Below, one piece after another: positions 3,422 to 50,373 of a stretch of DNA of 64,000 bases. The position numbers and the translations under genes were made by a program. Each line of letters begins with the position of its first letter. Within the stretch, counting starts at the first letter, position 1. Origin of the DNA: Patescibacteria group bacterium (GTDB lineage Bacteria > Patescibacteriota > Minisyncoccia > Minisyncoccales > UBA10102). The notes beneath the pieces are model-generated. The model made no database searches. It was given only the letters and a program-made list of their open reading frames with translations, and was not told where the DNA came from. The stretch spans positions 590,342 through 654,341 of the forward strand of contig JADFNM010000001.1 of assembly GCA_022563395.1 (NCBI GenBank). Direction: 5' to 3'.

Positions 3422-3458
3422 TGAACCCCGTTAGAAATTAAGACAATGTTTATTATGT

Positions 3459-3953: not shown

Positions 3954-4012
3954 GAGGGGGTACCATGAATAAAAGGCGAGTTTGGAGAATACTACCATTC
4001 TTTAATATAATT

Positions 4013-11420: not shown

Positions 11421-12364
11421 CAGCAAAAACAGTAATTAAGGTGTTTGGGATAGGGGGAGCCGGAAACAACGCGATAGACAGAATGGTACAGGCCAAGATT
11501 CGGGGAGTCGATCTCATTGCCATTAACACGGACGCCCAGGACTTAAAGAAAGTCAAAGCTCACCACAAGATTCGCATTGGCAGGGAGAGTACCAAGGGGC
11601 TGGGAGCTGGCATGAACCCGGAGCTGGGAAAACGGGCTGCCTTGGAAAGCAAGGAAGAACTTGAGAGTGCGCTTAAGGGAGCCGACATGGTGTTTCTGGC
11701 AGCAGGCCTTGGAGGAGGAACAGGGGGAGGTGCCATTGTTCCTATAGCTGAAATGGCAAGAGCGCAAAAGATTTTGAGCATTGCCGTGGTGACCAAACCC
11801 TTCACCTTTGAAGGCTCCTGGAGAAACAGGCTGGCTGACCGGGCATTGCAAGAACTTCAGGGCAAGGTAGACACCCTTTTGGTTATTGAAAACGACCAGA
11901 TTCTAGAGCTTGCAGGCCAAGACACCACCGTACTTTCTGCCTTTTGGCAGGTAGATGAGATCCTGCGCCAGGCAGTGCAGGGCATTTCAGATCTCATTGC
12001 GGTTCCTGGCATCGTTAATGTGGACTTTGCGGACGTGAGAAGAATCATGGCCTCTGCCGGACAGGCGGTGTTTGGGGTAGGCAAGGCAAAGGGTGAGCAG
12101 CGTATTGAGCAGGCCCTGGAAGCAGCTCTCCACTCACCGTTGTTGAACATGTCCATTCAAGGGGCCCAGGCTGTGCTCTTTAACGTGGCAGGAGGAGACG
12201 ACCTTTCCTTAACCGAGGTGAATGAGGCAGCGCAAAAGATCAAAGAGAAGCTCGCACCAGGAGCTACCATTATCTTTGGTGCCGTGTATGACAAGAGTTT
12301 GAAAAAAGGTGAGGTAAAGATTACCCTCATTGCCACGGGTTTTAAAAAAGGAATGTTTTCTTGA
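11417..12364 (+). CDS. ftsZ: Cell division GTPase FtsZ (core only, no C-terminal linker or tail)
   Basis: 315 aa. Has GIGGAGNNA and the tubulin signature GLGGGTGGGA. The protein ends about 10 aa after the ...ITLIATGF strand that closes the globular core. Confidence 0.93.
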   Translation: MTAKTVIKVFGIGGAGNNAIDRMVQAKIRGVDLIAINTDAQDLKKVKAHHKIRIGRESTKGLGAGMNPELGKRAALESKEELESALKGADMVFLAAGLGGGTGGGAIVPIAEMARAQKILSIAVVTKPFTFEGSWRNRLADRALQELQGKVDTLLVIENDQILELAGQDTTVLSAFWQVDEILRQAVQGISDLIAVPGIVNVDFADVRRIMASAGQAVFGVGKAKGEQRIEQALEAALHSPLLNMSIQGAQAVLFNVAGGDDLSLTEVNEAAQKIKEKLAPGATIIFGAVYDKSLKKGEVKITLIATGFKKGMFS

Positions 12365-13904: not shown

Positions 13905-15212
13905 ATGAAAAAGGCGTGGGTTGTTGCAGTGGACATGGGATACGGGCACCAGCGGGCCGCGTTTACCTTGCGGCGCATTGCTCTTAAAGGGAAAATAATC
14001 ACGGCAAACGATTATCCTGGCATTCCAGAGCTTGACCGCACCCTGTGGCGGGAAACCCGGAGGGTGTATGAGTTTATCTCAAAGTTCAAGAAAATCCCGG
14101 TTTTAGGAGATTTGGTATTTTCCTTAATGGACAAGGTGCAAGAGATAAAGCCCTTTTATCCAAAAGAACGCCCCTTGGAACCCCCAGGACTCCAACTAAG
14201 AACCATCTATGGATTAATCGAGAGAAAGGAGTGGGGCAGGCATTTAATAGAAAAACTGGATGAGCACCCATTACCCATGGTCTGCACCTTTCCGGTTCCA
14301 GCTTTTATGGCAGAGCACTGGAAATACCGGGGAGACATCTATCTTTTGGTGACCGACAGCGATGTTGCCCGTGCTTGGGTCCCCTTCTTTCCCAAAGAGA
14401 CCAAGATTCACTACCTTGCTCCCAGTCAGCTGGTTGCAGAGCGCCTTTTGCAGTATGGAATCTCAAAGAAAAAAATTACTCTGACCGGGTTCCCATTACC
14501 AGAGGAGTTCACAAGCTCTGAGGGATTCACCCAGACAAAAGAGGACTTAAGGAGAAGGTTGGTGCGCTTGGACCAAAAGAGAAAATACATAACCCGGTAT
14601 GCTGATGTGGTGCGTTCATACCTTGGCAAGGTGCCAACAGGCCGCAACGGAGCTCCAGTTATCACATTTGCCGTAGGGGGAGCGGGTGCTCAGCAAGCTC
14701 TGGGCCAGAGCATGATTCACCACCTAGCCCCTCTTTTGAAAAAAAAGAAGCTCAAGTTGCAGATGGTAGCCGCCACCCATAAAGATGCAGCCACAAGATT
14801 CAAGGAAGCTGCAGCAAAAGAGGGATTATCTAAAAAAGAGGTTCAGGTGGTCTTTTTAAAGAGCAAGGACAAGTACTTCAAAAGATTTACTGAGGTTTTA
14901 CGCGCAACGGATATCTTGTGGACCAAGCCTTCCGAACTCTCCTTCTATGCCGCCCTCGGCATTCCTTTGCTTCTTGCCCCTCCCATCGGGTCTCAAGAAG
15001 TGCAGAACCAAAAGTGGCTGGCGCGCTTGGGGGTTGCCATACCACAGCTCAAGGTGGAGCATGCCGATGAATGGATTCCAGACTTTTTAAATCAAGGCTT
15101 GTTTGCAGAAGCTGCCATGCAAGGATTTGTAGAGATGGAGAGAAATGGCGCCAAAAATATTGCGAGTGTCATAGAATCCAATAGTTCCTTAATGAAATTA
15201 AGGAATCCTTAA
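13905..15212 (+). CDS. Putative glycosyltransferase (MGDG-synthase/UgtP-like N-terminus)
   Basis: 435 aa. The N-terminal VAVDMGYGHQRAA resembles the G-x-GH-x-x-A motif of GT28/MGDG-synthase-like enzymes, and a GGAGAQQ segment occurs later. The last 11 codons are encoded by the 65-bp repeat. Confidence 0.45.
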   Translation: MKKAWVVAVDMGYGHQRAAFTLRRIALKGKIITANDYPGIPELDRTLWRETRRVYEFISKFKKIPVLGDLVFSLMDKVQEIKPFYPKERPLEPPGLQLRTIYGLIERKEWGRHLIEKLDEHPLPMVCTFPVPAFMAEHWKYRGDIYLLVTDSDVARAWVPFFPKETKIHYLAPSQLVAERLLQYGISKKKITLTGFPLPEEFTSSEGFTQTKEDLRRRLVRLDQKRKYITRYADVVRSYLGKVPTGRNGAPVITFAVGGAGAQQALGQSMIHHLAPLLKKKKLKLQMVAATHKDAATRFKEAAAKEGLSKKEVQVVFLKSKDKYFKRFTEVLRATDILWTKPSELSFYAALGIPLLLAPPIGSQEVQNQKWLARLGVAIPQLKVEHADEWIPDFLNQGLFAEAAMQGFVEMERNGAKNIASVIESNSSLMKLRNP

Positions 15213-15236
15213 TTTCATTTAAGAGGTATGCGTATG
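15172..15236 (+). repeat. 65-bp direct repeat, copy A (contains a P-family palindrome)
   Basis: TAGAATCCAATAGTTCCTTAATGAAATTAAGGAATCCTTAATTTCATTTAAGAGGTATGCGTATG. Identical to 15901-15965 except for one base. Confidence 0.9.
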
Positions 15237-15941
15237 CAATTTTCTTTTGATTCTTTCAAACGATATATTCAAAAGGTAGAGCGACTTATTCCCGAGGGTT
15301 CAATCTCTAAGAAAGAGTTTGATTTTTTTGTTTCCTTGTTAAAAAAACATGCAGACATACAAGACGTAGGAGAAATTGGGTTTAATGTAGGATTTTCCAG
15401 TTATGCCTTTTTGTCTGCTAGAGATAACATACAGGTTACCTCCTTTGACATCGGAACTCACAAGTATGTGAAGCACGCCAAAGAATTCATCGATGCCCGA
15501 TTCTCAGGGAGACATACGCTCGTGCGGGGAAATTCTCTTAAAACAGTCCCCAGTTTTGTAGAGCACAATCCCAATACAAAGTTTGGCCTTATCTTTATTG
15601 ATGGGGGCCATGATTACCATACGGTTATCACCGATTTGCATAATATGAAGAAGTTGGCGACTCAAGATACGATTGTAGTCATGGATGACCTGACTCCATG
15701 GGAAGGGTGGGGAAGAGGACCGACAAAGGCATGGAGGGAAGCGGTTGGGACGGGACTGATACGAGAAATTGGCGTGTATAAAAACGGGGTGTCCGTCAAG
15801 AGCTTAGAAGGAGGTTCTCCGGATCGAATTTGGGGAGTTGGATGCTATCAAGAGCTAGAGAAACAGGTCTTAACATCATCTCGCAGGCGGAGATATTCTT
15901 TAGAATCCAATAGTTCCTTAATGAAATTAAGGATTCCTTAA
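15228..15941 (+). CDS. Class I SAM-dependent (O-)methyltransferase
   Basis: 237 aa. GEIGFNVGFSS, the FIDGGHDY motif and VVMDD are typical of Methyltransf_24-like enzymes. Start and C-terminus both lie in the 65-bp repeats. Confidence 0.75.
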   Translation: MRMQFSFDSFKRYIQKVERLIPEGSISKKEFDFFVSLLKKHADIQDVGEIGFNVGFSSYAFLSARDNIQVTSFDIGTHKYVKHAKEFIDARFSGRHTLVRGNSLKTVPSFVEHNPNTKFGLIFIDGGHDYHTVITDLHNMKKLATQDTIVVMDDLTPWEGWGRGPTKAWREAVGTGLIREIGVYKNGVSVKSLEGGSPDRIWGVGCYQELEKQVLTSSRRRRYSLESNSSLMKLRIP

Positions 15942-15965
15942 TTTCATTTAAGAGGTATGCGTATG
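15901..15965 (+). repeat. 65-bp direct repeat, copy B
   Basis: Same sequence as 15172-15236 with one A/T difference. Supplies ...ESNSSLMKLRIP-stop to the methyltransferase and ATGCGTATG to the next gene. Confidence 0.9.
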
Positions 15966-20821: not shown

Positions 20822-20827
20822 CTTGCC

Positions 20828-20892
20828 CCCACACTAATCGTGTTGTGTGCTGTGCACAAATCCAGCAAATGCTGCGACACAATTAGTGTGGG
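20828..20892. promoter_or_regulatory. Long inverted repeat between htrA and clpB (terminator or heat-shock operator candidate)
   Basis: Arms CCCACACTAATCGTGTTG (20828-45) and CGACACAATTAGTGTGGG (20875-92) form an 18-bp stem with one mismatch and one G-U. It is followed by T6 and TGgTATGAA, 11 nt before the clpB ATG. Confidence 0.45.
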
Positions 20893-20935
20893 AGCTTGCG
20901 CCGCCCCCTTTTTTGTGGTATGAAGAACCCATCCT

Positions 20936-24384: not shown

Positions 24385-24424
24385 CTAAACGAGATTTAAG
24401 CAGCACTGCTTAAATCTCGTTTAG
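24385..24424. repeat. P-family palindrome (copy at the left edge of the accessory region)
   Basis: CTAAACGAGATTTAAGCAGCACTGCTTAAATCTCGTTTAG, followed by TTATCCACAGGTTTT..CAGCTCTTTT. About 72 bp is repeated directly at 33165-33236. Confidence 0.85.
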
Positions 24425-24499
24425 TTATCCACAGGTTTTTCTCAACAGCTCTTTTTTAAATCATCTCGCAATCTGTAGACTAGAAAATTAAGATAGTCA

Positions 24500-24564
24500 G
24501 TTCGAATTCTACCCGCGGAGCTCGTAAAGTTGAACCAAAGAATCGCCAAGAAGGCGGTTTTTTG
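24500..24564 (+). repeat. Junction repeat J0 (right-half unit with hairpin and T-tract)
   Basis: GTTCGAATTCTACCCGCGGAGCTCGTAAAGTTGAACCAAAGAATCGCCaagaaGGCGGTTTTTTG. Confidence 0.8.
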
Positions 24565-24626: not shown

Positions 24627-25052
24627 ATGAAAACTCTCATTGAGAAGGGGATCGTCTTCTTCGGCGCTCTCACGGTGTTCCTGCTGCTTCTTCACGCCAC
24701 GGACGAGATTGCGCGCGGCGCGGCCGCCCAGCAATACGCGATCGTCGGAGCCGGAGTGGCCGTCCTATTCTTCATCCTGCTGATGATCCTTTACGTCTTC
24801 GGCATCGGATGGGCCTGGAAGCAACGTAGGCTGGGCTACGGGATCGTCCTCGTGGCGTCCGCCGCCGCCTTCTTGCGGACCTTCGCCGTGATCCTCGGCT
24901 TGGGCAACCCGGATCTGGAGGCCCTCTTCGCTGCCTACGCCAGCGAGGCCGTAGGCGTCTTCTTCGTCTTCGTCTACCTGGCCATTGCCCTGACGAGCCT
25001 GATGGCTCTCTTCCTCTCCATCTACGCACTGGTTATCCGGAAGCGGGAATAA
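24627..25052 (+). CDS. Cassette 1: small 4-TM membrane protein, GC-rich
   Basis: 141 aa with four hydrophobic helices. In a hand count, one 60-nt line (24661-24720) has 40 G+C, far above its neighbours. Confidence 0.65.
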   Translation: MKTLIEKGIVFFGALTVFLLLLHATDEIARGAAAQQYAIVGAGVAVLFFILLMILYVFGIGWAWKQRRLGYGIVLVASAAAFLRTFAVILGLGNPDLEALFAAYASEAVGVFFVFVYLAIALTSLMALFLSIYALVIRKRE

Positions 25053-25231: not shown

Positions 25232-25308
25232 AAACAGGTTCTAACGTCGTCCAGTAGGGGGAGCTCGTAAAGTTGAATCAAAGAATCGTCAAACAGGCGG
25301 TTTTTTGG
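25232..25308 (+). repeat. Junction repeat J1 (full short form)
   Basis: AAACAGGTTCTAACGTCGTCCAGTAGGGGGAGCTCGTAAAGTTGAATCAAAGAATCGTCaaacaGGCGGTTTTTTGG. Confidence 0.85.
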
Positions 25309-25321
25309 TAGAGTAGGAGAC

Positions 25322-26455
25322 ATGAAATACCTTCTATTCGCACTCATTGGAATTGTTGTTCTGGCAGGTGGGTTTTTCTTTTTCCATTTTCAAGGAAACC
25401 CTGGAGAAGAGGAACCCTTATTTCCTCAAAAGGAGGAGTCAATGCCTGGAGAAAGCATTGAAACTGGGGCATCAAAAAAGGAAGTCTTGGAACAAGAGGA
25501 ATCTTCTGCGTCAGAATCAGCCCCTGCAATTTCTCAAGTTGAAGAAGCAACTGAAGAGGTCGTACAAAAAGATTTTAGGATGGCCTTTGTGCTTTTAATT
25601 CGTAGTTCTTCTGATGCAACGCCAGGAAGAATAAATAAAATTAATGAAATCAAAAATGCCTTTCCGAATTCTTTCAAAACGGCAACAAGAAATTTAGCAA
25701 CGATGGATACATCTTCAGACATTGTAATAATGACTGTAGACTCGGGTCCTGACATTACTTCATTTCTATTTGATTGGGGTAAATATCCACAAAAGTTTTA
25801 TGAAGATCACGAAGACAACTTTGACTTTATAAGTTTCTATACAGCATTCGAAGATCAACAATCTCAAGCTCATTTACCAGTAAGCAATGCCATAAAGGGT
25901 ATTGGAAATGTTAACTTAATGAATTCAGCAAGAGGATATGGTTCAGGGGGTAGGCTAAAAGGATTAAATTTTATGGGTGATATTACAATATTCGAAAGAT
26001 TGCAGCTTTTAACTATAGAATCTGCATTAAATGCTTTAAAACATGAAACAGGTCATCAGTGGTGTTGCTATATAATGGACAGTAGAGAAGAAAATGGCAA
26101 TGTGCCATTAATACAGGAGTATGTTCACTGGAACTTCTTTTTGGACTTAAAAAGTATCAATGATGGCTATATTGATCCATTAGGGGGAACTGATTGGATT
26201 GAAGTAGAGAAAAATAAATTCAAAGTATCAGATCGGTTAAGATATATAGAAGCTCGGTATTCACCGCTTACCTTGTACTTAATGGGACTTTTGTCAGCAG
26301 AAGATGTGCCACCAATACCATTAATAAGACCCTTTGATTCAGTTATAGAAAAATCAACCTATCCTCCTAATGAAGTTGATGGGATTAAAGAATTTGTTTC
26401 CATGGAAGACATAATTGCAAGAGAAGGAAAGTGGAGATGTTGTTTTAGTCCTTAA
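25322..26455 (+). CDS. Cassette 2: membrane-anchored putative zinc metalloprotease (HExxH)
   Basis: 377 aa with an N-terminal TM helix, an acidic linker and LKHETGHQW (HExxH). The gene is AT-rich: one 60-nt line (25621-25680) has 17 G+C. Confidence 0.6.
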   Translation: MKYLLFALIGIVVLAGGFFFFHFQGNPGEEEPLFPQKEESMPGESIETGASKKEVLEQEESSASESAPAISQVEEATEEVVQKDFRMAFVLLIRSSSDATPGRINKINEIKNAFPNSFKTATRNLATMDTSSDIVIMTVDSGPDITSFLFDWGKYPQKFYEDHEDNFDFISFYTAFEDQQSQAHLPVSNAIKGIGNVNLMNSARGYGSGGRLKGLNFMGDITIFERLQLLTIESALNALKHETGHQWCCYIMDSREENGNVPLIQEYVHWNFFLDLKSINDGYIDPLGGTDWIEVEKNKFKVSDRLRYIEARYSPLTLYLMGLLSAEDVPPIPLIRPFDSVIEKSTYPPNEVDGIKEFVSMEDIIAREGKWRCCFSP

Positions 26456-26610: not shown

Positions 26611-26684
26611 CAGGTTCTAACAGCCTCCACGCTCCGGAGCTCGTAAAGTTGAGTCAAAGAATCGCCACGATGGCGGTTTTTTGG
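26611..26684 (+). repeat. Junction repeat J2 (full short form)
   Basis: CAGGTTCTAACAGCCTCCACGCTCCGGAGCTCGTAAAGTTGAGTCAAAGAATCGCCacgatGGCGGTTTTTTGG. Degenerate GTAGGGGGG units lie just upstream at about 26535-26580. Confidence 0.8.
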
Positions 26685-26696
26685 TATACTAAAAAT

Positions 26697-27329
26697 ATGA
26701 AGAAGACTATCTTGGTTCTTTTTGGAGGTACAGCTATTATTGTAGGTGGACTCTTTGTGTACGATAGTTATATTGTTGATCAGAGACAGGATAAGGAAGA
26801 AAGGATCCAGGAAAGTTTAACACAAGAGATAGTGAAGGATCTTGGTATTAATATCGCAGACTGGCAAACCTACCGCAACGACGAGTTCGGATTCCAGATG
26901 AAATATCCTGAAGAATGGGAGGTGAAAGAATTTGAGACAAAAATTGATATTGGTATTTTTGGATTGCCTAAACATTATTTCGTTACTGTATCTAAAAGCG
27001 AAAACCCAGAAGGTCTAAATGGTAAACAATATGCTCAACAATGGCTAAGGAGGTTAATTCGTACTCTTCCAGAACAGACAATTATATCAACAAGCACTGA
27101 GGCGATTGAGGTAGGTGGATATGGTGGGTCTATAGTTCGAGATTTTCATATAGAGATAGAAGATGAGCCAAACCTTGATGTGATTTTCGTAGTCTTACCT
27201 GATCAAGAACTAATCTACCAAATCCAATTCCCAATAGGTGAAGGGCAATTAAGCAAGCGTATTCTAGATCCTGAAAAAAATTACAGAACTGCAAATCAAA
27301 TCCTCTCTACGTTTCAGTTTATTAAATAG
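26697..27329 (+). CDS. Cassette 3: secreted/anchored protein with ADWQTYRN-EFGF-KYP-W motif
   Basis: The ATG at 26697 gives MKKTILVLFGGTAIIVGG (TM). The motif ADWQTYRNDEFGFQMKYPEEWEV is shared with cassette 5. The track start at 26544 runs through J2 and is rejected. Confidence 0.7.
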   Translation: MKKTILVLFGGTAIIVGGLFVYDSYIVDQRQDKEERIQESLTQEIVKDLGINIADWQTYRNDEFGFQMKYPEEWEVKEFETKIDIGIFGLPKHYFVTVSKSENPEGLNGKQYAQQWLRRLIRTLPEQTIISTSTEAIEVGGYGGSIVRDFHIEIEDEPNLDVIFVVLPDQELIYQIQFPIGEGQLSKRILDPEKNYRTANQILSTFQFIK

Positions 27330-27330
27330 A

Positions 27331-27430
27331 AGCAGGTTCTAATAATCCTCCGACTTGTTTTAACACAGACTCAGGATATTTGATTTCTTCTATCCACCTA
27401 AAAGTTCGAAAATCGTCCCACCCGCGGAGC
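27331..27430 (+). repeat. Junction repeat J3 (left motif plus a second degenerate unit, no hairpin)
   Basis: AGCAGGTTCTAAT..., about 60 nt, then ...AAAAGTTCGAAAATCGTCCCACCCGCGGAGC. Confidence 0.65.
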
Positions 27431-27434
27431 AATC

Positions 27435-27463
27435 TTGACAATATCACAAAAATGTGGTATTGT
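27435..27463 (+). promoter_or_regulatory. Promoter of the cassette 4 small ORF
   Basis: TTGACA, 17-nt spacer, TGgTATTGT (extended -10). A TAAGGAG Shine-Dalgarno lies before the ATG at 27500. Confidence 0.55.
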
Positions 27464-27499
27464 TTTAGTAGACTGAATTTGTACAGTAAGGAGCTAAGG

Positions 27500-27679
27500 A
27501 TGGCAAAGAAGATTGTTGTAATTCAGCGTGGTGACCCAGGCTACACAGACTGGTATGCTTCCACAGAGGAGGGGGGAGGAATTGGAGCGGGAAGCAATGG
27601 TAGTACAGCAGCAGAGGCAGTTGGGAATCTTATACTCAACCATTCTAAGCTGTTCGACTGTGAAGTCGAAATCAAATAG
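27500..27679 (+). CDS. Cassette 4: small hypothetical protein (59 aa)
   Basis: MAKKIVVIQRGDPGYTDWYAST..., preceded by TAAGGAG. The track ORF start at 27380 runs through J3 and is rejected. Confidence 0.5.
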   Translation: MAKKIVVIQRGDPGYTDWYASTEEGGGIGAGSNGSTAAEAVGNLILNHSKLFDCEVEIK

Positions 27680-27742: not shown

Positions 27743-27890
27743 AAAACAGGTTCTAACATCGTCTCGTCAGTAGGACCATTTCTCGATTTAAACCAGCCAT
27801 ATATTCTGAGTCCTCTAAAAGTATAATAAGCTTTGGACTGGGGAGCTCGTAAAGTTGAATCAAAGAATCGTCAAACAGGCGGTTTTTTGG
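27743..27890 (+). repeat. Junction repeat J4 (long form, 96 nt between AAC and GTT)
   Basis: The left part is AAAACAGGTTCTAACATCGTCTCGTCAGTAGG. After a variable centre, the right part GGGGAGCTCGTAAAGTTGAATCAAAGAATCGTCaaacaGGCGGTTTTTTGG is identical to J1. Confidence 0.85.
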
Positions 27891-27902
27891 TAGAATATAT
27901 CC

Positions 27903-29792
27903 ATGCAAAAGAATGATTTTGAACACACTCAACGAGAAACATCCGAGCCCACTTCTTTGGGCTGGAAGAGTGCTTGGAAGGTTACAAAGGAGGTATATAT
28001 ATGGATCATTGGAGTTAATCTCCTTCTCCTATTGTTCAGTGTGGTATTTGGGGGTGTGCTCGATCCATTACTCGCATTGCTTTCTATAGTTTTGCCGATT
28101 GCTGGTATTGTTGTTGGAATCAAAAAATCATTTCCTCAGGCACAGAGAGGATTTCCAATCTTCCGTACAGCCTTTCTTATTGGAGTAATACCACTGGCTG
28201 CATTGTTTTTGTTTGGGCTATGGGCTATTCTCATAAATCTAGATCATCTAAGAACAAATGGTCTAGCAGCAGTTGTCCTATTGGTTGGACAAATTTCTGA
28301 GTTTGCTTCCATAGGACTTTTCTCTTCCTTGGTTTTTGGTACTGTATCCTACTTTGTTCTCTTAAAGAAAAGAATTTCCACGGATACCTCTTTTAAATCT
28401 ACATCTTTAAAATTTCTCGGATTATTTTTTCTCTTACTATTTATTTATATTTTCATAGGAGCAGTGTTTGCTTCTCTTCTTTTCATAACTTCTGCAGCTT
28501 GGTCTAAAGATAGCAAGTCTCAAGAAAATATATCAGAAGTTGAAATTAGCAAGCAAGATGAAACAGCCGATTGGCAAACTTACCGAAACGAAGAGTTTGG
28601 GTTTGAAATAAAATATCCTGATCAATGGGGAATAAGAGAGACAGGCGATGGTTCTTTTGAAATTTATATTCAACAAACAGGTGTAAGTGATATTGGCTCA
28701 ATAGTCTTTACAGGAGATTCAAATATCGATACAGCAATACAAAACCATCTGGCAAGGTATGTTGTTGGAACGCTAATTCAGAGAGAGGAAAATATAAGCT
28801 TGGATGGGAAATATGGAAAGCTTGTATATCAAAATACAGGTGGACGGGATTTGCAGGAGGATGATTTGAGTAAATGGTACTTTGTTGTAAATAATGGACA
28901 AATACTTAAACTTGGTCTTTATTTCCGCCCAAAAGGTTATGACTATGATGAATTATTTGATTTAATGCTCTCCACGTTTCGGTTCATTGAAAATGCGAGG
29001 GTAACTCTACCAACTACTTGTAAAGACGAATTAGATGGGGTTCCTGTTATTACTTCAATCTCACCAGCTTCTGGGTTAGTAGGTACAGAGGTTGAAATCA
29101 GAGGATGTAATCTTGGAGGATTTGAAGGTGACCTCGATGCTGTATTTGTACGGAGCGACGGGGAAGAAATCCCGCTTTATGGTGGAACATGGTATCCAGG
29201 ATATGGGGGAGCAGAACCAGGAAAACTTATCAAGATAATTGTACGGCCATACTGTGAATCTGGCTCTGTAACTGGACGTTATTCTGGAATTACCTCACCA
29301 TGCGAAACAGTAAATGTAACCCCAGGTACGTACAAAGTTTATACAGAAGCTTGGGGGAAGAAGAGCAATGAAGCTCTTTTTATTATTAAGTCTTCAGAGA
29401 ATATGCAAACGATTAAACTTTATTATTATAATGAAGAACATGATCCTAACTTTGATTGTATAGCTGAAGCAGTTATTTCGGTTGAGCGAGAGATTCCTAT
29501 AACAAATACACCCATTCAAGATACAGTCAAACTTCTTATAGAAGGAAAATTAACAGTAGAAGAAAAAGCCGCCGGATTTTCAACAGAGTTTCCTCACCCA
29601 GATTTCGAACTTCTTGGTGCAAACCTTACAGATGATGGAATTTTGACATTAGACTTTCCAGAAGTCTTTGGATTTACTAGTGGAGGATCATGTAGGGTTG
29701 GTATATTGAATGCAGAGATCGAAAAAACAGTTAAACAATTCTCACAAGTTAAAGAAGTTAAGTACACAAACATAGGGATATTTCAGCCATAA
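27903..29792 (+). CDS. Cassette 5: polytopic membrane protein with extracytoplasmic ADWQTYRN-motif, IPT/TIG-like and GerMN-like domains
   Basis: 629 aa with about 5-6 N-terminal TM helices and ADWQTYRNEEFGFEIKYPDQW. PVITSISPASGLVGTEVEIRGCNLGGF is IPT/TIG-like. C-terminal IKLYYYNE...IPITNTPIQDTVKLLIEG is GerMN-like. Confidence 0.7.
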   Translation: MQKNDFEHTQRETSEPTSLGWKSAWKVTKEVYIWIIGVNLLLLLFSVVFGGVLDPLLALLSIVLPIAGIVVGIKKSFPQAQRGFPIFRTAFLIGVIPLAALFLFGLWAILINLDHLRTNGLAAVVLLVGQISEFASIGLFSSLVFGTVSYFVLLKKRISTDTSFKSTSLKFLGLFFLLLFIYIFIGAVFASLLFITSAAWSKDSKSQENISEVEISKQDETADWQTYRNEEFGFEIKYPDQWGIRETGDGSFEIYIQQTGVSDIGSIVFTGDSNIDTAIQNHLARYVVGTLIQREENISLDGKYGKLVYQNTGGRDLQEDDLSKWYFVVNNGQILKLGLYFRPKGYDYDELFDLMLSTFRFIENARVTLPTTCKDELDGVPVITSISPASGLVGTEVEIRGCNLGGFEGDLDAVFVRSDGEEIPLYGGTWYPGYGGAEPGKLIKIIVRPYCESGSVTGRYSGITSPCETVNVTPGTYKVYTEAWGKKSNEALFIIKSSENMQTIKLYYYNEEHDPNFDCIAEAVISVEREIPITNTPIQDTVKLLIEGKLTVEEKAAGFSTEFPHPDFELLGANLTDDGILTLDFPEVFGFTSGGSCRVGILNAEIEKTVKQFSQVKEVKYTNIGIFQP

Positions 29793-29820: not shown

Positions 29821-29981
29821 AAAACAGGTTCTAACTTCGTCCAGTAGCCCCCAGCAATTCCTCCATTTCTTTCATTTCATTCTTAATATTTACCCAATCA
29901 AGAGTTCTAAACTCGTTCAATAGGGGGATTTGATTAGCCTTATTATACTTTTTCAAGAATCGCCACGGAGGCGGTTTTTTG
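29821..29981 (+). repeat. Junction repeat J5 (long form with a tandem degenerate unit)
   Basis: AAAACAGGTTCTAACTTCGTCCAGTAGCCCCC..., then ...AGAGTTCTAAACTCGTTCAATAGGGGGA..., then ...AAGAATCGCCacggaGGCGGTTTTTTG. Confidence 0.75.
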
Positions 29982-29994
29982 ATAAGGTAGAAAT

Positions 29995-30213
29995 ATGGGA
30001 ACTTTGATAACCATTAAAACCTACCCAGATAGGACAGAGGCAGAACTTGTAAAAGGAGTTCTTGAGTCAAAAGGTATCAAAGCTATGGTTTCTGCAGATG
30101 ATGCTGGCGGGATGAATCCCGCCCTCTTATGGGCCACAGGGGGAGTGCGCTTACTCGTTAAGAAGAAAGATATTCAGATGGCAACTGAGGTTTTAGAAAG
30201 TTTTAGTAAGTAG
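29995..30213 (+). CDS. Cassette 6: DUF2007-like small protein (putative signal-transducing fold)
   Basis: 72 aa. The pattern ...TEAELVKGVLESKGIKAMVSADD...GGVRLLVKKKDIQMATEVL matches the DUF2007 family layout as I recall it. Confidence 0.55.
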   Translation: MGTLITIKTYPDRTEAELVKGVLESKGIKAMVSADDAGGMNPALLWATGGVRLLVKKKDIQMATEVLESFSK

Positions 30214-30223: not shown

Positions 30224-30250
30224 GAAACAGGTTTTAACTTCGTTCCATAG
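30224..30250 (+). repeat. Junction repeat J6 (left motif only)
   Basis: GAAACAGGTTTTAACTTCGTTCCATAG. The right half and hairpin are absent. Confidence 0.55.
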
Positions 30251-30334
30251 ACGACTCAAGGCGATATTGTTCTTTCAAGAAGTGTGTAGTATCATTTAAT
30301 ATAGTCATAATTCCTTAATCTAATACAATACAAG

Positions 30335-31348
30335 ATGAATAAAATCATTGTAGTTATACTTGTGGTGGTGGCAGCGATATTGCTCATCAGTACTATTACG
30401 GGGTCACCAACTGAGTCTCTTACTAAGACAACGTATGCCTCTATTCCTGATTCAGCTTTTGGGCCAGTTATTCCAGAAAAAGGATACCGCGTTGAAGAAA
30501 TAGGCGATGGCCTTTACTGGGTAACTGAAGGAGTCTACCATATGATGTTTTTAACAACTGGAGAAGGGGTTATCGTTGTTGATGCTCCGCCATCCATTGG
30601 AGAAAATATATTGAAAGCCATTGCAGAAACAACTGACGAACCCATAACTCATGTTATTTACAGTCACTCGCATGCAGATCATATCGCTGCAGCAAGTATG
30701 TACCCAGAAAATGCAATATATATTGCTCATGAAGAAACTGCTTTGAGATTAGCTCAAGATAGACCTTTTGAATTTGGTTTGTTTGTGGGAGGCTCTGATG
30801 TTCCAGATCCTACGGTAACCTTCTCAGACACCTATACATTAACTGTCGGCACGCAAACATTAGAGCTCGAGTACAAAGGACCTGCCCATAGACCAGGCAA
30901 TATCTTTATCTATGCTCCTCAGCAAAAAGTGTTGATGTTTATTGATGTTATCTTCCCCGGATGGACACCGTTTAAATGGTTAGCCGTTGCGGAAGACGTG
31001 CCTGCCTTTGTTGATGCTCATGATTGGGTATTAAGCTATGACTTTGATGCATTAATCAGCGGGCATGTAGGACGTTTAGGAACAAGAGAAGATGTTGAAA
31101 TGCAAAAAGAGTATATCTTAGATACTCAAGCTAATGCAGCGAAAGCACTACAAACAGTTGATTTTAGTGCTATTGCGGCGGAAATTGGGTTTTCAAATGT
31201 ATGGTTACTATTTGACACCTATTTAAATGCTGTCAGCGAAGAATGCGCAAAACTAACAGAGGAAAAATGGGTAGATAGATTAGGTGCGGTTGATGTATTT
31301 ACCAAAAGTCATTGTGATAAGTTAGTTGAGAGCTTAAGAATTGATTAG
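30335..31348 (+). CDS. Cassette 7: secreted metallo-beta-lactamase-fold hydrolase
   Basis: 337 aa with an N-terminal TM/signal sequence. Has the HxHxDH motif in HVIYSHSHADHIAA. Confidence 0.8.
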   Translation: MNKIIVVILVVVAAILLISTITGSPTESLTKTTYASIPDSAFGPVIPEKGYRVEEIGDGLYWVTEGVYHMMFLTTGEGVIVVDAPPSIGENILKAIAETTDEPITHVIYSHSHADHIAAASMYPENAIYIAHEETALRLAQDRPFEFGLFVGGSDVPDPTVTFSDTYTLTVGTQTLELEYKGPAHRPGNIFIYAPQQKVLMFIDVIFPGWTPFKWLAVAEDVPAFVDAHDWVLSYDFDALISGHVGRLGTREDVEMQKEYILDTQANAAKALQTVDFSAIAAEIGFSNVWLLFDTYLNAVSEECAKLTEEKWVDRLGAVDVFTKSHCDKLVESLRID

Positions 31349-31425: not shown

Positions 31426-31500
31426 AAAACAGGTTCTAACGTCGTCCAGTAGGGGGGAGCTCGTAAAAGTGAACCAGAGAATCGCCAAGTAGGCGGTTTT
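31426..31500 (+). repeat. Junction repeat J7 (full short form)
   Basis: AAAACAGGTTCTAACGTCGTCCAGTAGGGGGGAGCTCGTAAAAGTGAACCAGAGAATCGCCaagtaGGCGGTTTT. The TGGTAGAGT box is displaced to 31524-31532. Confidence 0.8.
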
Positions 31501-31569
31501 GAGTTTACACTGAGTACTCGAAGTGGTAGAGTGAAGTAAAGAGTTTCTTAAACCAATATCTACACGTTT

Positions 31570-32502
31570 ATGAAAGCAGTTCAAATTAATAAATATGGCG
31601 ACAACAGTGTCGTTGAAGTCAATGAGAAAGCAGCCAAACCAGAGGTGTCTGCTGGTACAGTTTTAGTGGAAGTCCACGCCGCAAGCGTTAATCCTGTGGA
31701 CTGGAAAATCCGGGAAGGATATCTTAAAGAGATGATGCAGCTTGAGTTTCCAGCCACCCTGGGGGTTGATTTTTCAGGTGTAATAGCAGAGGTTGGTGAG
31801 AGTGTTTCCGGGTTTAAGCCAGGGGATGAAGTCTATGGCATGGCCAGCGCCATGACTGGCGGTTCGTTTGCTGAATTTATAATTGTACCATTTGCATCAG
31901 TAGCCCTTAAGCCAAAAAGCGTCTCGCATAGTGAGGCTGCGGCCGTCCCACTTACGGGATTAAGTGCGTTGCAAGTCTTAAAGGACCAGATGAATATTTC
32001 CAACGGACAAAAAGTACTAATTCATGGCGGTGCTGGTGGAATCGGCACGTTGGCAATTCAGATAGCAAAACAGCTTGGCGCTGAAGTTGCAACAACCGCA
32101 AGTAAAGAGGATAGTGACATTGTGAAAGAATTGGGTGCGGATACGGTTATTGATTATAAGAATGAAAAGTTTGAGGATATGGTGAAAGACTACGATGCGG
32201 TTTTTGACACTATCGGCGGTGAAACATATCAGCGATCATTTCAAGTACTCAAAAAGGGTGGAGTTATCGTTTCCATGGTCGAGAAGCCGAATGAAGAACT
32301 GATGAAGCAATACGAAGTTGAGGCGAAGATGCAATTTACTCAACCCAACGGCGCGCAGCTTGCAGAACTTGCCACCTTGGTTGATGAAGCGAAGATGAAA
32401 ATAAAGATTGACCGCGCATTTCCCTTGGATGCAGTAAAAGAAGCACTTGATTATTTACAAAACAGCCACCATCAAGGCAAGGTGGTGATTACTGTTAAAT
32501 AA
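31570..32502 (+). CDS. Cassette 8: NADPH:quinone oxidoreductase / MDR-family zinc-type dehydrogenase
   Basis: 310 aa. Has VLVEVHAASVNPVDWK, a GxGxxG-like cofactor loop (IHGGAGGIGTLAIQ) and C-terminal GKVVI. Confidence 0.85.
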   Translation: MKAVQINKYGDNSVVEVNEKAAKPEVSAGTVLVEVHAASVNPVDWKIREGYLKEMMQLEFPATLGVDFSGVIAEVGESVSGFKPGDEVYGMASAMTGGSFAEFIIVPFASVALKPKSVSHSEAAAVPLTGLSALQVLKDQMNISNGQKVLIHGGAGGIGTLAIQIAKQLGAEVATTASKEDSDIVKELGADTVIDYKNEKFEDMVKDYDAVFDTIGGETYQRSFQVLKKGGVIVSMVEKPNEELMKQYEVEAKMQFTQPNGAQLAELATLVDEAKMKIKIDRAFPLDAVKEALDYLQNSHHQGKVVITVK

Positions 32503-32534: not shown

Positions 32535-32612
32535 AAAACAGGTTCTAACGTCGTCCAGCAAGGGGAGCTCGTAAAGTTAAGCCAAAGAATCGCCATGCAG
32601 GCGATTTTTTGG
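32535..32612 (+). repeat. Junction repeat J8 (full short form)
   Basis: AAAACAGGTTCTAACGTCGTCCAGCAAGGGGAGCTCGTAAAGTTAAGCCAAAGAATCGCCatgcaGGCGATTTTTTGG. The G-to-A change in the 3' arm keeps the stem paired. Confidence 0.85.
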
Positions 32613-32624
32613 TAGCTTTAAGAT

Positions 32625-33053
32625 ATGCAGACTAAGCTTTTCTTGAAAGAAACGGTTCTTCTTACAAAGTCTTTTGATGCACATCAAGATTGGGAGGTTC
32701 CAATCCCCGGATTTTTTATAATTGCCTCAAAAGATACTACAAAAAAATCAATAGCTGAGTTTACAAGTGAAGAAGTAAAAGAGCTTGGTAGTGTAATCCA
32801 TAGAGTACGGGTGGGGATGCGAGAAGTATTAGACATAAAAGATGTATATCTATTACAGAACGAAGCTTCCAAACACGGGTTTCACGTCTGGATGTTTCCT
32901 CGTTATTCATGGATGGAGAAGTTTGGATGGAGCCCTAAGTCTATAGCTTTGATTATGGAACATGCAAACAAACACATGAAAACAGACGGTAATATTAAAG
33001 AAGTAAAGGATGCGGTTATTCGGGTAAGAGAATATCTTGAAAACAGGTCCTAG
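32625..33053 (+). CDS. Cassette 9: HIT-like fold protein
   Basis: 142 aa. Has a degenerate histidine-triad-like segment HGFHVWMFPR. The stop codon lies inside the J9 left motif (GAAAACAGGTCCTAG). Confidence 0.55.
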   Translation: MQTKLFLKETVLLTKSFDAHQDWEVPIPGFFIIASKDTTKKSIAEFTSEEVKELGSVIHRVRVGMREVLDIKDVYLLQNEASKHGFHVWMFPRYSWMEKFGWSPKSIALIMEHANKHMKTDGNIKEVKDAVIRVREYLENRS

Positions 33054-33156
33054 TATCATTTCACCAACAATTCTTCTATTTCTCTCATCAAGTTTTCAGG
33101 GTTTTCAATAGCTTCTATCCACCTAAAAGTTCTAAACATGTCCCATAGGGGGGAGC
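33039..33156 (+). repeat. Junction repeat J9 (terminal: left motif plus a second degenerate unit)
   Basis: GAAAACAGGTCCTAG..., about 70 nt, then ...AAAAGTTCTAAACATGTCCCATAGGGGGGAGCT. It abuts the palindrome at 33165. Confidence 0.7.
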
Positions 33157-33164
33157 TACTTCCG

Positions 33165-33205
33165 CTTAAACGAGATTTAAGCAGCACTGCTTAAATCTCG
33201 TTTAG
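33165..33205. repeat. P-family palindrome (array / LTD-module boundary)
   Basis: CTTAAACGAGATTTAAGCAGCACTGCTTAAATCTCGTTTAG followed by TTATCCACAGGTTTTCCTCAGCAGCTCTTTT. It is a direct repeat of 24385-24457. Confidence 0.85.
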
Positions 33206-33282
33206 TTATCCACAGGTTTTCCTCAGCAGCTCTTTTCAACCCAACTCAAAACCCTGTACAATAGAAAAGGTGTGTCGAATAC

Positions 33283-33321
33283 CTCCTTAATGAAATTAAG
33301 GATGCTTTAATTTCATTTAGG
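33283..33321. repeat. P-family palindrome upstream of the 33346 gene
   Basis: CTCCTTAATGAAATTAAGGATGCTTTAATTTCATTTAGG. This and the following ~35 nt are repeated at 38498-38552. Confidence 0.8.
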
Positions 33322-38443: not shown

Positions 38444-38484
38444 CTTAAACGAGATTTAAGCAACATTGCTTAAATCTCGTTTAG
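38444..38484. repeat. P-family palindrome (right boundary of LTD module)
   Basis: CTTAAACGAGATTTAAGCAACATTGCTTAAATCTCGTTTAG, starting 6 nt after the stop of the giant gene. Confidence 0.85.
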
Positions 38485-38497
38485 TTTCTCATAACTA

Positions 38498-38525
38498 GAT
38501 TAAGGAATCCTTAATTTCATTTAGG
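38498..38525. repeat. P-family element plus duplicated upstream region of the 33346 gene
   Basis: GATTAAGGAATCCTTAATTTCATTTAGG, then CACCATTAACC...TTTTGCATGCAAAAA. This parallels 33296-33357, including the ATG-CAA-AAA start. Confidence 0.75.
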
Positions 38526-38564
38526 CACCATTAACCTCTTTTATTTTGCATGCAAAAAAAGAAA

Positions 38565-47221: not shown

Positions 47222-47259
47222 TTTCGTTTAAGCATTCTTGCCTAAATGAAATTAAGGAG
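47214..47259. repeat. P-family palindrome across the stop codon of the 45518 gene (terminator-like)
   Basis: CTCCTTAATTTCGTTTAAGC-attctt-GCCTAAATGAAATTAAGGAG. The arm sequence is intermediate between the two P-family variants. Confidence 0.8.
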
Positions 47260-50282: not shown

Positions 50283-50373
50283 GGGTGGTATGGAGCATGT
50301 CTTGAAGGCGGTACAGCCAAAGAAGGTGGATGTACGAGAAATAAAAAGGGGCGCAGCAAAAGGGTAATGTAAC

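What the first reader, a model, noticed from the sequence alone, without database searches (positions are those of the whole stretch)
25261..25324. Junction repeats carry a structure-conserved hairpin with T-tract, then an extended -10-like box at a fixed 6-7 nt from the ATG
**Seen in the sequence:**
- In J0, J1, J2, J4, J5, J7 and J8 the segment AATCG[CT]C-N5-GGCG[GA]TT forms a 7-bp stem.
- The 5-nt loop differs between copies (aagaa, aaaca, acgat, acgga, aagta, atgca), while the stem stays paired. In J8 a G-to-A change turns a U-G pair into U-A.
- T4-T6 follows the stem.
- Directly after it comes TGgTAGAGT, TGgTATACT, TGgTAGAAT, TGaTAAGGT or TGgTAGCTT.
- In five cassettes (ATGs at 25322, 26697, 27903, 29995 and 32625) the ATG follows that box by exactly 6-7 nt, with no usable Shine-Dalgarno.

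**Established knowledge:**
- A stem followed by a U-tract is the form of an intrinsic terminator.
- TGnTAnAAT is an extended -10 promoter.
- Transcription usually starts about 7 nt downstream of the -10 box.

**Inference:** each cassette is insulated from the previous one and carries its own promoter, giving a leaderless mRNA. Classical integron cassettes, by contrast, are promoterless.
Basis: partly seen in the sequence, partly recalled or inferred. Interest (0 to 1): 0.6.

Follow-up and report, generated by a model that had tools for sequence, protein, structure and literature searches.

The report
Terminator-promoter module heading mobile gene cassettes
The repeated hairpin, T-run, "-10 box" and start codon are real: they form the front end of single-gene mobile cassettes that pile up behind a tRNA-Asn gene end in marine Patescibacteria, most likely stopping incoming transcription and restarting it right at the ATG, and the other half of each junction is a split-off piece of a large serine recombinase gene, not an integron site.

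Summary
**Observation:** confirmed. Seven copies of AATCGYC-N5-GGCGRTT lie on the + strand (0 expected). Each is followed by a T-run and TGnTAnnnT. In five cassettes the ATG follows after 6-7 nt.

**Context:** not an integron. Each junction has two parts.
- **H1** is a degenerate copy of the 3' end of tRNA-Asn. It is also the last ~30 codons, on the minus strand, of a large serine recombinase (LSR) gene whose attP lies inside the gene.

**Evidence from related metagenome contigs:**
- Arrays start at an intact tRNA-Asn downstream of rpoD.
- The same cassettes recur with different neighbours.
- In L142, H2 follows the intact tRNA directly.
- Other cassettes begin with a canonical TTGACA-17-TATTGT promoter instead of H2.

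**Reading:** H2 is most likely a compact intrinsic terminator plus extended -10 promoter that starts transcription at the ATG (leaderless).
- For: the fold is stable only as + strand RNA. TG, T-12, A-11 and T-7 are kept while neighbouring bases drift. At least nine different genes start 6-7 nt after the box.
- Limits: the stem shows no compensatory double changes, and no transcript data exist.

**Verdict:** interpretation partly supported; a new variant of known tRNA-targeted accretion.

The parts
24386..24455 (+). Left copy of the 70-nt direct repeat that brackets the array. It holds a perfect 19-bp hairpin and a TTATCCACA motif.
   Evidence: D6; I2
24491..24521 (+). J0: partial tRNA-Asn, only the 3' ~31-34 nt (AGATAGTC-A-GTTCGAATTCTACCCGCGGAGC). 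No 5' half is present.
   Evidence: compared with the intact tRNA-Asn of L127 and L121
24522..24571 (+). H2 copy J0: hairpin 24541-24559, T-run, TGTTAGACT. The ATG 9 nt later opens only a 5-codon ORF; the real gene starts at 24627.
24627..25052 (+). Cassette gene 0: 141-aa membrane protein. GC is 58% against about 40% for its neighbours.
25232..25264 (+). H1 type A (AAACAGGTTCTAACGTCGTCCAGTAGGGGGAGC): 3' end of cassette 0, a degenerate tRNA-Asn end / attP left arm.
   Evidence: (D3)
25265..25324 (+). H2 copy J1, the finding itself: hairpin 25284-25302, T-run to 25306, TG 25306-25307, TAGAGT 25309-25314, 7 nt, ATG 25322.
25322..26455 (+). Cassette gene 1: 377 aa with an N-terminal membrane helix. 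NCBI annotates this same ATG.
26611..26699 (+). J2: H1 (to 26640) plus H2. Hairpin 26660-26678; TCGCCA-17-TATACT with TG, 26662-26690; ATG 26697.
26697..27329 (+). Cassette gene 2: 210 aa, weak PsbP_2 match.
27325..27435 (-). J3: fossil of an LSR gene tail (..RGWDDFRTFRWIEEIKYPES..*). On the + strand it contains H1 type B2, GTTCGAAAATCGTCCCACCCGCGGAGC (27404-27430).
27435..27679 (+). Type-2 cassette: TTGACA-17-TATTGT promoter with TG (27435-27463), SD AAGGAG, 59-aa gene 27500-27679. No H2.
27744..27905 (+). J4: H1 type A (27744-27773), degenerate second H1, GGAGC 27842-27846, then H2. Hairpin 27866-27884; TCGTCA-17-TAGAAT; ATG 27903.
27903..29792 (+). Cassette gene: 629 aa (Germane / TIG / PsbP_2-like).
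29822..29997 (+). J5: H1 type A (29822-29851); LSR-tail fossil B1 on the minus strand (29834-29935, ..PLLNEFRTLDWVNIK..); hairpin 29958-29976; TGATAAGGT; ATG 29995. The H2 5' part is replaced.
29995..30213 (+). Cassette gene: DUF2007, 72 aa.
30225..31348 (+). J6 plus the MBL-fold cassette. H1-like 30225-30254, no H2; TAGTCA-16-TACAAT 30302-30329, 5 nt, ATG 30335. The same cassette has other neighbours in L151.
31427..31572 (+). J7: H1 type A plus H2 with a short T-run. Hairpin 31480-31498; TGGTAGAGT displaced (TTTACA-17-TAGAGT, 31504-31532); 37-nt leader; ATG 31570.
31570..32502 (+). Cassette gene: Zn-dependent / NADP oxidoreductase, 310 aa.
32536..32627 (+). J8: H1 type A plus H2. Hairpin 32588-32606 (GGCGATT, all Watson-Crick), TGGTAGCTT, 6 nt, ATG 32625.
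32625..33053 (+). Cassette gene: 142 aa, no Pfam match.
33059..33160 (-). J9, the array end: LSR-tail fossil B2 (..PLWDMFRTFRWIEAIENPEN..*). On the + strand H1 ends at GGAGC 33152-33156 and is followed by non-H2 flank.
33167..33236 (+). Right copy of the 70-nt direct repeat (97% identical to the left copy).
   Evidence: D6; I3

Best explanation
The element (H2: TCGTAAAGTTGAATCAAAG-AATCGCC-N5-GGCGGTT-TTTT-TGnTAnnnT-N6/7-ATG) is the 5' module of one class of single-gene mobile cassettes.

**Where the cassettes sit (shown).** They accumulate immediately after the last nucleotides of a tRNA-Asn gene (...CCCGCGGAGC) in a clade of marine Patescibacteria. Each cassette ends in H1. H1 is an attP left arm that mimics the tRNA end, and it is the split-off 3' end of a large serine recombinase gene.

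**How cassettes move (inferred).** An LSR acting in trans inserts them.

**Why the module is needed (inferred).** A cassette lands directly behind a tRNA gene or behind another cassette, so it must bring its own expression signals. H2 supplies both in about 60 nt:
1. A 12-14-bp hairpin with a U-run acts as an intrinsic terminator for the tRNA or the upstream cassette.
2. An overlapping promoter follows: weak -35 TCGCCA inside the 5' arm, a 17-nt spacer, then an extended -10 TGnTAnnnT. Its canonical geometry puts +1 on the A of the ATG, giving a leaderless mRNA.

The repeat, its geometry, the tRNA and LSR origin of H1, and cassette shuffling are shown. Termination, initiation at the ATG and LSR-mediated capture are inferred.
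For: **Array nature**
- H1 matches the tRNA-Asn 3' end (J0: 29 of 34 aligned columns).
- An intact tRNA-Asn heads related arrays downstream of rpoD.
- The 144-aa cassette occurs directly after the tRNA (L127, L128 and L132). It also occurs after three different cassettes (L121, L122, L131). Identity always starts after GGAGC.
- The MBL cassette has other neighbours in L151.
- Contigs with identical RpoD differ downstream.

**LSR link**
- A profile of the minus-strand tails hits 104 representative proteins, always at their C-terminus. These include LSR C-terminal halves P0280 and P0254.
- The L141 LSR stops (..AHWLRG*) inside the tRNA, exactly where P0262 and P0280 continue with ..LLNDFRTFDW / ..WDAFRTLRW.
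- The L150 LSR gene contains the J3-type H1 sequence.

**Terminator**
- The + strand RNA fold is -15 to -21 kcal/mol with no shuffle as good. The minus strand gives -1.5 to -8.8 in 6 of 7 copies.
- The hairpin starts about 20 nt after the intact tRNA in L142.
- Solo hairpin/T-run copies sit right after stop codons in L121 and L145.
- Loop positions 2-5 are hypervariable, while only 3 of the 14 core stem positions vary and each change keeps the pair.

**Promoter and leaderless start**
- TGnTAnnnT is kept in 13 of 16 copies from six populations, with variable inner positions. Loop nucleotide 1 is an invariant A, which is the last base of the -35-like TCGCCA at 17 nt.
- The ATG lies 6-7 nt after the box for nine different genes: window 5, L121 1, L122 1, L142 2.
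- The background for TGnTAnnnT at 6-7 nt is 0.2% of positions.
- N-terminal membrane helices and the DUF2007 match support these ATGs, and NCBI annotates the same starts.
- Non-H2 cassettes begin with clear promoters at the same position. The MBL cassette has TACAAT 5 nt before its ATG.
- The hairpin is not needed for mobility, because type-2 cassettes move without it.
Against: - No transcript 5' or 3' end data exist.
- The stem shows no compensatory double change, and the shuffle control is not exceeded. Selection on structure rather than sequence is therefore unproven.
- The U-run is fully paired with an upstream A-rich tract, so termination efficiency is uncertain.
- The -35 is poor.
- Lack of SD is not diagnostic here, because most backbone genes also lack one. 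Only 8 of 40 backbone starts have any TAnnnT at 4-9 nt, against an 8% background.
- Five to seven of 16 H2 copies do not have a long ORF at 6-7 nt: J0, J7, L121b, L128, L145, L151 and the contig-end L122 copy.
- No recombinase is encoded in the 64-kb window.
- The window array is not attached to an intact tRNA.
- Canonical LSRs do not recombine attP with attL, so array growth by repeated insertion is not explained.
Confidence: 0.58

Rival explanations
1. H2 is only the native trailer and terminator of the tRNA-Asn gene (the B' side of attB), copied along with cassettes. It has no promoter activity. Cassette genes are translated from read-through or upstream transcripts by SD-independent initiation, and the box-to-ATG distance reflects the junction of a conserved repeat with the coding sequence.
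For: - In L142 the intact tRNA-Asn is followed directly by H2.
- SD-independent initiation must be common in this genome anyway.
- Several H2 copies are followed by long leaders or by no ORF.
Against: - If the hairpin terminates, downstream genes need a promoter.
- The conservation pattern (TG, T-12, A-11, T-7 kept; inner positions free) is that of a -10 element, not of a neutral repeat end.
- Nine different genes are fused at exactly the +1 position.
- Alternative cassette heads are clear promoters.
Confidence: 0.17
2. The hairpin is a recombination element: either part of the right half-site (P') or an accessory site bound by the serine recombinase, or a folded single-strand site like an integron attC. 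Its terminator-like shape is incidental.
For: - It lies 20-40 nt from the cassette boundary and is conserved in sequence across species whose RpoD is only 88% identical.
- There is no compensatory covariation, which fits protein recognition of sequence.
- The H2 5' part (CTCGTAAAGTTGAAT) could be a half-site.
Against: - Cassettes without the hairpin (type 2, MBL) are demonstrably found in several contexts.
- Hairpin copies occur with no H1 or GGAGC next to them, directly behind genes (L121b, L145).
- J5 keeps the hairpin but has lost the H2 5' part.
- The 3' arm and T-run lie beyond the ~25 bp reach of an LSR half-site (established knowledge of LSR att sites).
- The fold is strongly strand-asymmetric through G.U pairs.
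Confidence: 0.12
3. This is an integron-type array (a CALIN): the junction repeats are attC sites recombined by an IntI encoded elsewhere.
For: - The cassettes are single-ORF, same-orientation and functionally unrelated, with array-specific conserved repeats.
- GTTGAAT (a GTTRRRY match) occurs in H2.
Against: - No tyrosine recombinase is encoded in the window.
- Boundaries map to GGAGC, not to G|TT.
- H1 is homologous to a tRNA end and to an LSR gene tail.
- Arrays start at a tRNA, not at an attI next to intI.
Confidence: 0.02

Closest known systems
Integron cassette arrays (attI/attC, IntI), including sedentary chromosomal integrons and CALINs
   Same: - Arrays of mostly single-gene, same-orientation, functionally unrelated cassettes.
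- Conserved, lineage-specific junction repeats.
- The same cassette is found in different positions.
- New cassettes appear to enter at one fixed end.
   Different: - No IntI and no attC fold.
- The entry site is the 3' end of a tRNA-Asn gene.
- The junction's left half is the tail of a serine recombinase gene.
- The boundary is at GGAGC.
- Cassettes carry their own promoter modules instead of depending on Pc.
tRNA-targeted integrative elements that accrete in tandem: tycheposons in Prochlorococcus (bioRxiv 10.1101/2020.12.28.424599), ssrA islands of Dehalococcoides (PMC3146451) and cis-mobilizable elements (CIMEs; PMC5704250)
   Same: - Repeated insertion at a tRNA or tmRNA 3' end pushes older units distally.
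- Partial tRNA copies mark the junctions.
- Integrase-less units sit next to integrase-bearing ones.
- The region is hypervariable and breaks assemblies.
   Different: - Units here are 0.3-2 kb single genes without any mobility gene.
- The recombinase implicated is a large serine recombinase, not the tyrosine recombinase typical of those systems.
- A standard expression module heads many units.
Large serine recombinase (phage-type serine integrase) attP x attB integration
   Same: - An LSR (Resolvase + Recombinase + Zn_ribbon_recom) sits at the same tRNA-Asn site in L141.
- The H1 sequences lie within the ~30-nt reach of a half-site.
   Different: - attP lies inside the recombinase gene, so integration removes its last ~30 codons. 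This was not found in the papers searched.
- Internal array junctions are P|P' rather than attL/attR.
- P' sides are not conserved.
Genes split or truncated by integration: SSV-type archaeal integrases whose attP lies within int, and integration-dependent immunity of mycobacteriophages (both from own knowledge, not checked here)
   Same: The attachment site lies inside a coding sequence of the element, so the integrated and free forms encode different proteins.
   Different: - Here it is the C-terminal tail of a serine recombinase in a CPR bacterium.
- The split-off tails persist as the 3' ends of cargo cassettes.
Intrinsic terminators and extended -10 promoters giving leaderless mRNAs (common in Actinobacteria, Deinococcus-Thermus and archaea; own knowledge)
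   Same: - Hairpin plus U-run.
- TGnTAnnnT with the ATG at the canonical +1 distance.
   Different: - Both are fused into one ~60-nt portable unit whose -35 lies in the terminator stem.
- The unit is attached to mobile cassettes.
- Activity is untested.

Membership tests
Integron (attC cassette array) | IntI-type tyrosine recombinase next to an attI site at the head of the array | tested here: not met
   No Phage_integrase or other recombinase Pfam hit in any large ORF of the window. Related arrays start at tRNA-Asn after rpoD.
Integron (attC cassette array) | attC: R''-L''...L'-R' imperfect palindrome, with the cassette boundary at G|TTRRRY | tested here: not met
   Boundaries of shared cassettes map to ...GGAGC|. 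H1 is homologous to the tRNA-Asn end and to an LSR gene tail. No Rfam match; I did not check whether Rfam holds an attC model.
Integron (attC cassette array) | Single-ORF cassettes in one orientation that can change position | tested here: met
   Nine same-strand genes with unrelated functions. The 144-aa and MBL cassettes are found in different contexts.
Intrinsic (Rho-independent) terminator | Stable G+C-containing stem-loop directly followed by a U-run on the transcribed strand, downstream of a gene | tested here: met
   strand-specific stability; T-run; about 20 nt after the intact tRNA; right after stop codons. The simple scanner did not list them because the stem extends into the T-run.
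Intrinsic (Rho-independent) terminator | Transcripts actually end at the U-run | not testable with these tools
   Needs Term-seq or 3'-RACE.
Extended -10 sigma-70 promoter | TG one base upstream of a TAnnnT hexamer, with the most critical positions conserved | tested here: met
   13-14 of 16 copies. J2 and J4 are listed with TG and a -35-like hexamer at 17 nt.
Leaderless mRNA | Transcription start coincides with the A of the start codon | tested here: inconclusive
   The geometry fits, with 6-7 nt between the hexamer and the ATG for 9 genes. No 5'-end data.
Large serine recombinase integrative element | LSR gene (Resolvase + Recombinase + Zn ribbon) at one end of the unit, next to the att site | tested here: not met
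   Met for the L141 element but for none of the window cassettes. These keep only the last ~10-35 codons as fossils.
Large serine recombinase integrative element | Junction sequences derive from the recombinase's attP and the target attB | tested here: met
   H1 equals the sequence inside an intact LSR gene (L150). The integrated L141 LSR is truncated at the tRNA. J0 is a tRNA-Asn 3' fragment.
tRNA-linked accretion islands (tycheposon-like / CIME) | Tandem units separated by partial copies of the target tRNA 3' end, with an intact tRNA at the proximal end | tested here: met
   Met in L121, L127, L131 and L142. In the window itself the proximal tRNA is only a 3' fragment.

The most novel reading that the evidence does not exclude
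Patescibacteria of this clade have a functional analogue of the integron, built from different parts.
- A large serine recombinase, whose own gene is cut by integration, captures minimal single-gene cassettes at the 3' end of tRNA-Asn.
- Each cassette is made self-sufficient by a portable ~60-nt terminator plus leaderless-promoter head.
- The array is therefore a shuffled library of independently expressed genes, not a promoter-distance-graded stack.
Probability: 0.35. Interest if true: 0.85.

Novelty: new variant of a known kind. Interest (0 to 1): 0.66.

Why it matters
- **Gene flux in CPR bacteria.** Candidate Phyla Radiation bacteria have tiny genomes, and little is known about how they acquire and express new genes. 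This locus shows a hotspot behind rpoD-tRNA-Asn, and a second one behind clpB-protease, where unrelated single genes are swapped between populations. These genes include an MBL-fold hydrolase, an oxidoreductase, membrane proteins and a GC-rich foreign gene.
- **A minimal expression unit.** Many of these genes are preceded by one compact, conserved module. If the module works as read, it defines the minimal transcription and translation start signals of an uncultured lineage: an extended -10 with a leaderless ATG. That helps gene-start annotation, since callers disagree here (337/377 aa and 210/248/261 aa). It would also be a ready-made part for heterologous expression.
- **A candidate capture enzyme.** The link to a serine recombinase whose attP lies within its own coding sequence gives a testable enzyme with a defined tRNA target.

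Tried and rejected
1. **Genome-contig scan** with GGAGCTCGTAAARKTNA. The pattern was too short: 120 chance hits, none with the hairpin. The scan was wasted.
2. **Viral-contig scans** with the hairpin and H2 patterns found nothing.
3. **Strain variation.** Four other assemblies carry the same array at 99.96% identity, so they add no information.
4. **Degraded full tRNA at J0.** Rejected: only the 3' ~34 nt align, and the upstream part scores no better than shuffles.
5. **H2 coding on the minus strand as a continuation of the recombinase tail.** Rejected: there are stop codons in J8 and in the L142 copies.
6. **The 557-aa minus-strand gene next to the tRNA in L129/L131 as the recombinase.** Rejected: it has a signal-peptide-like N-terminus and no Pfam hit.
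7. **The 70-nt flanking repeat as a target duplication.** Unresolved: its hairpin is a recurrent post-gene element, but the two flanking copies share more sequence than the third copy does.
8. **Rfam** at gathering and E-value thresholds found nothing.
9. **Literature searches** for CPR plus integron/attC, tycheposons, CIME accretion and LSR plus tRNA found no description of this arrangement. The library is incomplete.
10. **Dyad symmetry** TTCAA-N6-GAGCTC-N6-TTGAA at H1|H2 is seen in only some copies and is not relied on.
Full report
**1. The observation**

- The window is a chromosomal segment of a small-genome bacterium. It carries pth, lepB, hisS, ftsA/Z, comEC, clpB, secA and secDF. NCBI holds the identical proteins as 'Patescibacteria group bacterium' on a 671,501-nt contig.
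- Between 24456 and 33166 lie nine same-strand genes of unrelated function, separated by related junctions.
- The pattern AATCGYC-N5-GGCGRTT occurs seven times on the + strand, against 0.00 expected.
- TTTTTGNTANNNT occurs 12 times against 1.9 expected.
Two corrections apply: the RNA stem is 12-14 bp because the U-run pairs with an upstream CAAAG tract, and the copies are related by descent.

**2. What the junctions are**

Each junction has two halves.
- **H1** (AAACAGGTTCTAACGTCGTCCAGTAGGGGGAGC and variants) follows the stop codon of the upstream gene.
- **H2** (TCGTAAAGTTGAATCAAAG, hairpin, T-run, box) precedes the next ATG.
- J3, J6 and J9 have H1 but not H2, and the break is always at GGAGC.

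Related contigs placed this in context.
- One metagenome scan with an H2 pattern returned two true relatives.
- In L121 an intact tRNA-Asn ends ...GGTTCGAGTCCTACCCGCGGAGC. It is followed at once by the same promoter-bearing sequence that follows H1 in window J3.
- H1 is therefore a degenerate copy of the tRNA-Asn 3' end. Window J0 is the most tRNA-like copy, but it holds only the 3' ~34 nt and has no 5' half.

**3. Cassettes move**

- A 144-aa cassette lies directly after tRNA-Asn in L127, L128 and L132.
- The same cassette lies after three different cassettes in L121, L122 and L131. Identity always begins right after GGAGC.
- The window's MBL cassette recurs at 90% identity or more in L151 with other neighbours.
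- Contigs encoding identical RpoD differ downstream of rpoD-tRNA-Asn, and most break there.
- RpoD relatives are named Wildermuthbacteria, Paceibacterota or Parcubacteria.
- The region behind the clpB-protease pair, where the window array sits, is also variable among relatives.

**4. The recombinase link**

- Read on the minus strand, the longer H1 versions translate to conserved tails. Type B1 reads ..PLLNEFRTLDWxxIKEEMKELNLI* and type B2 reads ..RGWDDFRTFRWxEEIKYPE...
- A profile of the three window tails found 104 representative proteins. The match is always at the C-terminus.
- The long hits are C-terminal halves of large serine recombinases, with a Zn_ribbon_recom domain and a coiled coil.
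- In L141 an LSR (Resolvase + Recombinase + Zn ribbon) lies next to tRNA-Asn on the opposite strand.
- It aligns colinearly with P0280 but ends ..AHWLRG*. The last codons and the stop are read from the reverse complement of the tRNA. P0262 continues ..AHWLALLNDFRTFDW...
- In L150 the intact LSR gene contains AAAGTTCGAAAGGCGTCCCATCCGCGGAGC. Window J3 has AAAGTTCGAAAATCGTCCCACCCGCGGAGC.
- So attP lies inside the 3' end of the LSR gene. Integration at tRNA-Asn splits off the last ~30 codons, and the window's H1 repeats are such split-off left arms.
- No recombinase is encoded in the window. Action in trans is inferred.

**5. The element itself (H2)**

*Terminator reading*
- As + strand RNA the seven copies fold at -14.8 to -21.4 kcal/mol, z -4.0 to -6.4.
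- As minus-strand RNA six of seven reach only -1.5 to -8.8, because U.G pairs become A.C mismatches.
- In L142 the hairpin starts about 20 nt after an intact tRNA-Asn.
- In L121 and L145 a hairpin/T-run copy stands alone right after a stop codon. In L151 a copy with a 24-nt insertion in the loop keeps the arms, the T-run and TGCTAGAAT.
- Loop positions 2-5 vary freely, while only three of the 14 core stem positions vary and each change keeps the pair. There is no two-sided compensatory change, and the shuffle control is not exceeded. Structural selection is suggested, not demonstrated.

*Promoter reading*
- TG is kept in 14 of 16 copies and TAnnnT in 13 of 16, from six populations. The three inner hexamer positions and the following 6-7 nt vary.
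- A -35-like TCGCCA lies 17 nt upstream. It consists of the 5' arm plus the invariant first loop base.
- Nine different genes start with ATG 6-7 nt after the box (window 5, L121 1, L122 1, L142 2). That is the canonical +1 position.
- Only 0.2% of window positions have such a box at that distance.
- Cassettes without H2 begin at the same place with TTGACA-17-TATTGT/TATCTT (with TG) plus an SD, fused to at least four different genes. The MBL cassette has TAGTCA-16-TACAAT 5 nt before its ATG.
- Every cassette head examined therefore carries a promoter-like module.

*Caveats*
- Most backbone genes also lack an SD.
- Only 8 of 40 backbone starts have a TAnnnT at 4-9 nt.
- Several H2 copies are followed by leaders or by decayed short ORFs.

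**6. Against a recombination role for the hairpin**

- Hairpin-less cassettes are mobile.
- Solo hairpins occur away from any H1.
- J5 keeps the hairpin but has lost the H2 5' part.
- The 3' arm and T-run lie outside the reach of a serine-recombinase half-site.
- The 5' ~25 nt of H2 may still double as a half-site. This was not tested.

**7. Comparison and novelty**

- The array works like an integron but fails its membership tests: no IntI, no attC, a different boundary.
- It resembles tRNA/tmRNA accretion islands: tycheposons, Dehalococcoides ssrA islands and CIMEs.
- It differs in three ways. The units are bare single genes. The implicated enzyme is a serine recombinase whose gene spans its own attP. 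A standard terminator-promoter head makes many units self-expressing.
- I found no description of this in the searchable library, which is incomplete.
- I rate it a new variant of a known kind.

**8. Open points**

- How the window array came to sit without an intact tRNA between 70-nt direct repeats.
- How an LSR could build arrays with internal P|P' junctions.
- How unrelated genes became fused at a fixed distance to the box.
- Why J3, J4, J5 and J9 carry 'empty' units made only of a tail fossil.

**Confidence by step**

| Step | Confidence |
|---|---|
| Array as tRNA/LSR-linked mobile cassettes | about 0.85 |
| Hairpin as terminator | about 0.7 |
| Box as promoter giving a leaderless mRNA | about 0.6 |

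Noticed in passing
L128 55-350; L138/L139/L140 ~11305-11590; L141 ~3435-4022: The tRNA-Asn gene downstream of rpoD is interrupted in the anticodon loop by a ~240-nt insert that looks like a group I intron. In L141 the insert is ~560 nt and carries a 110-aa ORF with an HNH-like CxxCH motif. ARAGORN misses these tRNAs. I did not run Rfam on them.
   Followed up: partly
L141 4008-5624 (minus strand) and L150 70-948: The large serine recombinase gene spans its own attP. The integrated copy ends ..AHWLRG*, with the stop codon inside the tRNA-Asn gene, while free or intact copies carry a further ~30-aa conserved tail (..FRT[LF][DR]W..ELL). The integrated and excised forms would therefore encode different enzymes.
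   Followed up: partly
window 24386-24455 and 33167-33236; also 38447-38485 and 47227-47246: A near-perfect hairpin, TTAAACGAGATTTAAGCAnCAnTGCTTAAATCTCGTTTAG, recurs just after several genes. The two copies flanking the array extend to 70 nt at 97% identity and include a perfect DnaA-box-like TTATCCACA. No other exact TTATCCACA is in the window.
   Followed up: partly
window 15189-15221, 15918-15950, 33287-33319, ~38500-38530: A second palindromic element, TTAATGAAATTAAGGAWNCCTTAATTTCATT, sits 10-30 nt upstream of four gene starts (15228, 15957, 33346, 38546). It may be an operator or REP-like element. A copy also lies in L151 next to a cassette head.
   Followed up: no
window 24627-25052: The first cassette gene (141-aa membrane protein) has 58% GC against about 35-45% for its neighbours. 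This suggests recent acquisition from a high-GC donor. It is preceded by a decayed 5-codon ORF at the position where H2 cassettes normally start.
   Followed up: no
window 27435-27463; L121, L122, L127, L128, L131, L132, L136: The alternative cassette head is a conserved promoter whose 17-nt spacer holds a perfect palindrome, ACCACAnnnnTGTGGT. This could be an operator for a regulator, which would imply co-regulation of otherwise unrelated cassettes.
   Followed up: no
window 25322 / 26697 / 30335 and L123-L125: Automatic gene callers disagree on cassette starts: 377 vs 337 aa; 210 vs 248 vs 261 aa, the last reading through the junction repeat; 337 vs 322 vs 267 aa. This is as expected if starts are leaderless and SD-less.
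   Followed up: partly
window 20826-20935: Upstream of clpB lies a long inverted repeat, CCCACACTAAT...ATTAGTGTGGG. It is followed by a G+C-rich stretch, a T-run and TGGTATGAA 11 nt before the ATG. The terminator-then-extended -10 layout is the same as in H2, and the repeat may be a heat-shock operator.
   Followed up: no
window 49012-53367: Three spermidine-synthase paralogues and two S-adenosylmethionine decarboxylase paralogues, together with an arginase-family gene, are clustered in about 4.4 kb.
   Followed up: no
window 13905, 45518, 60386; L128 ~2470: Some backbone genes also have a -10-like hexamer 6-7 nt before the ATG: TAAAAT-6-ATG, TATAAT-7-ATG, TATAAG-7-ATG, and TATAAT-7-ATG in L128. 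Leaderless starts may be used more widely in this lineage.
   Followed up: partly
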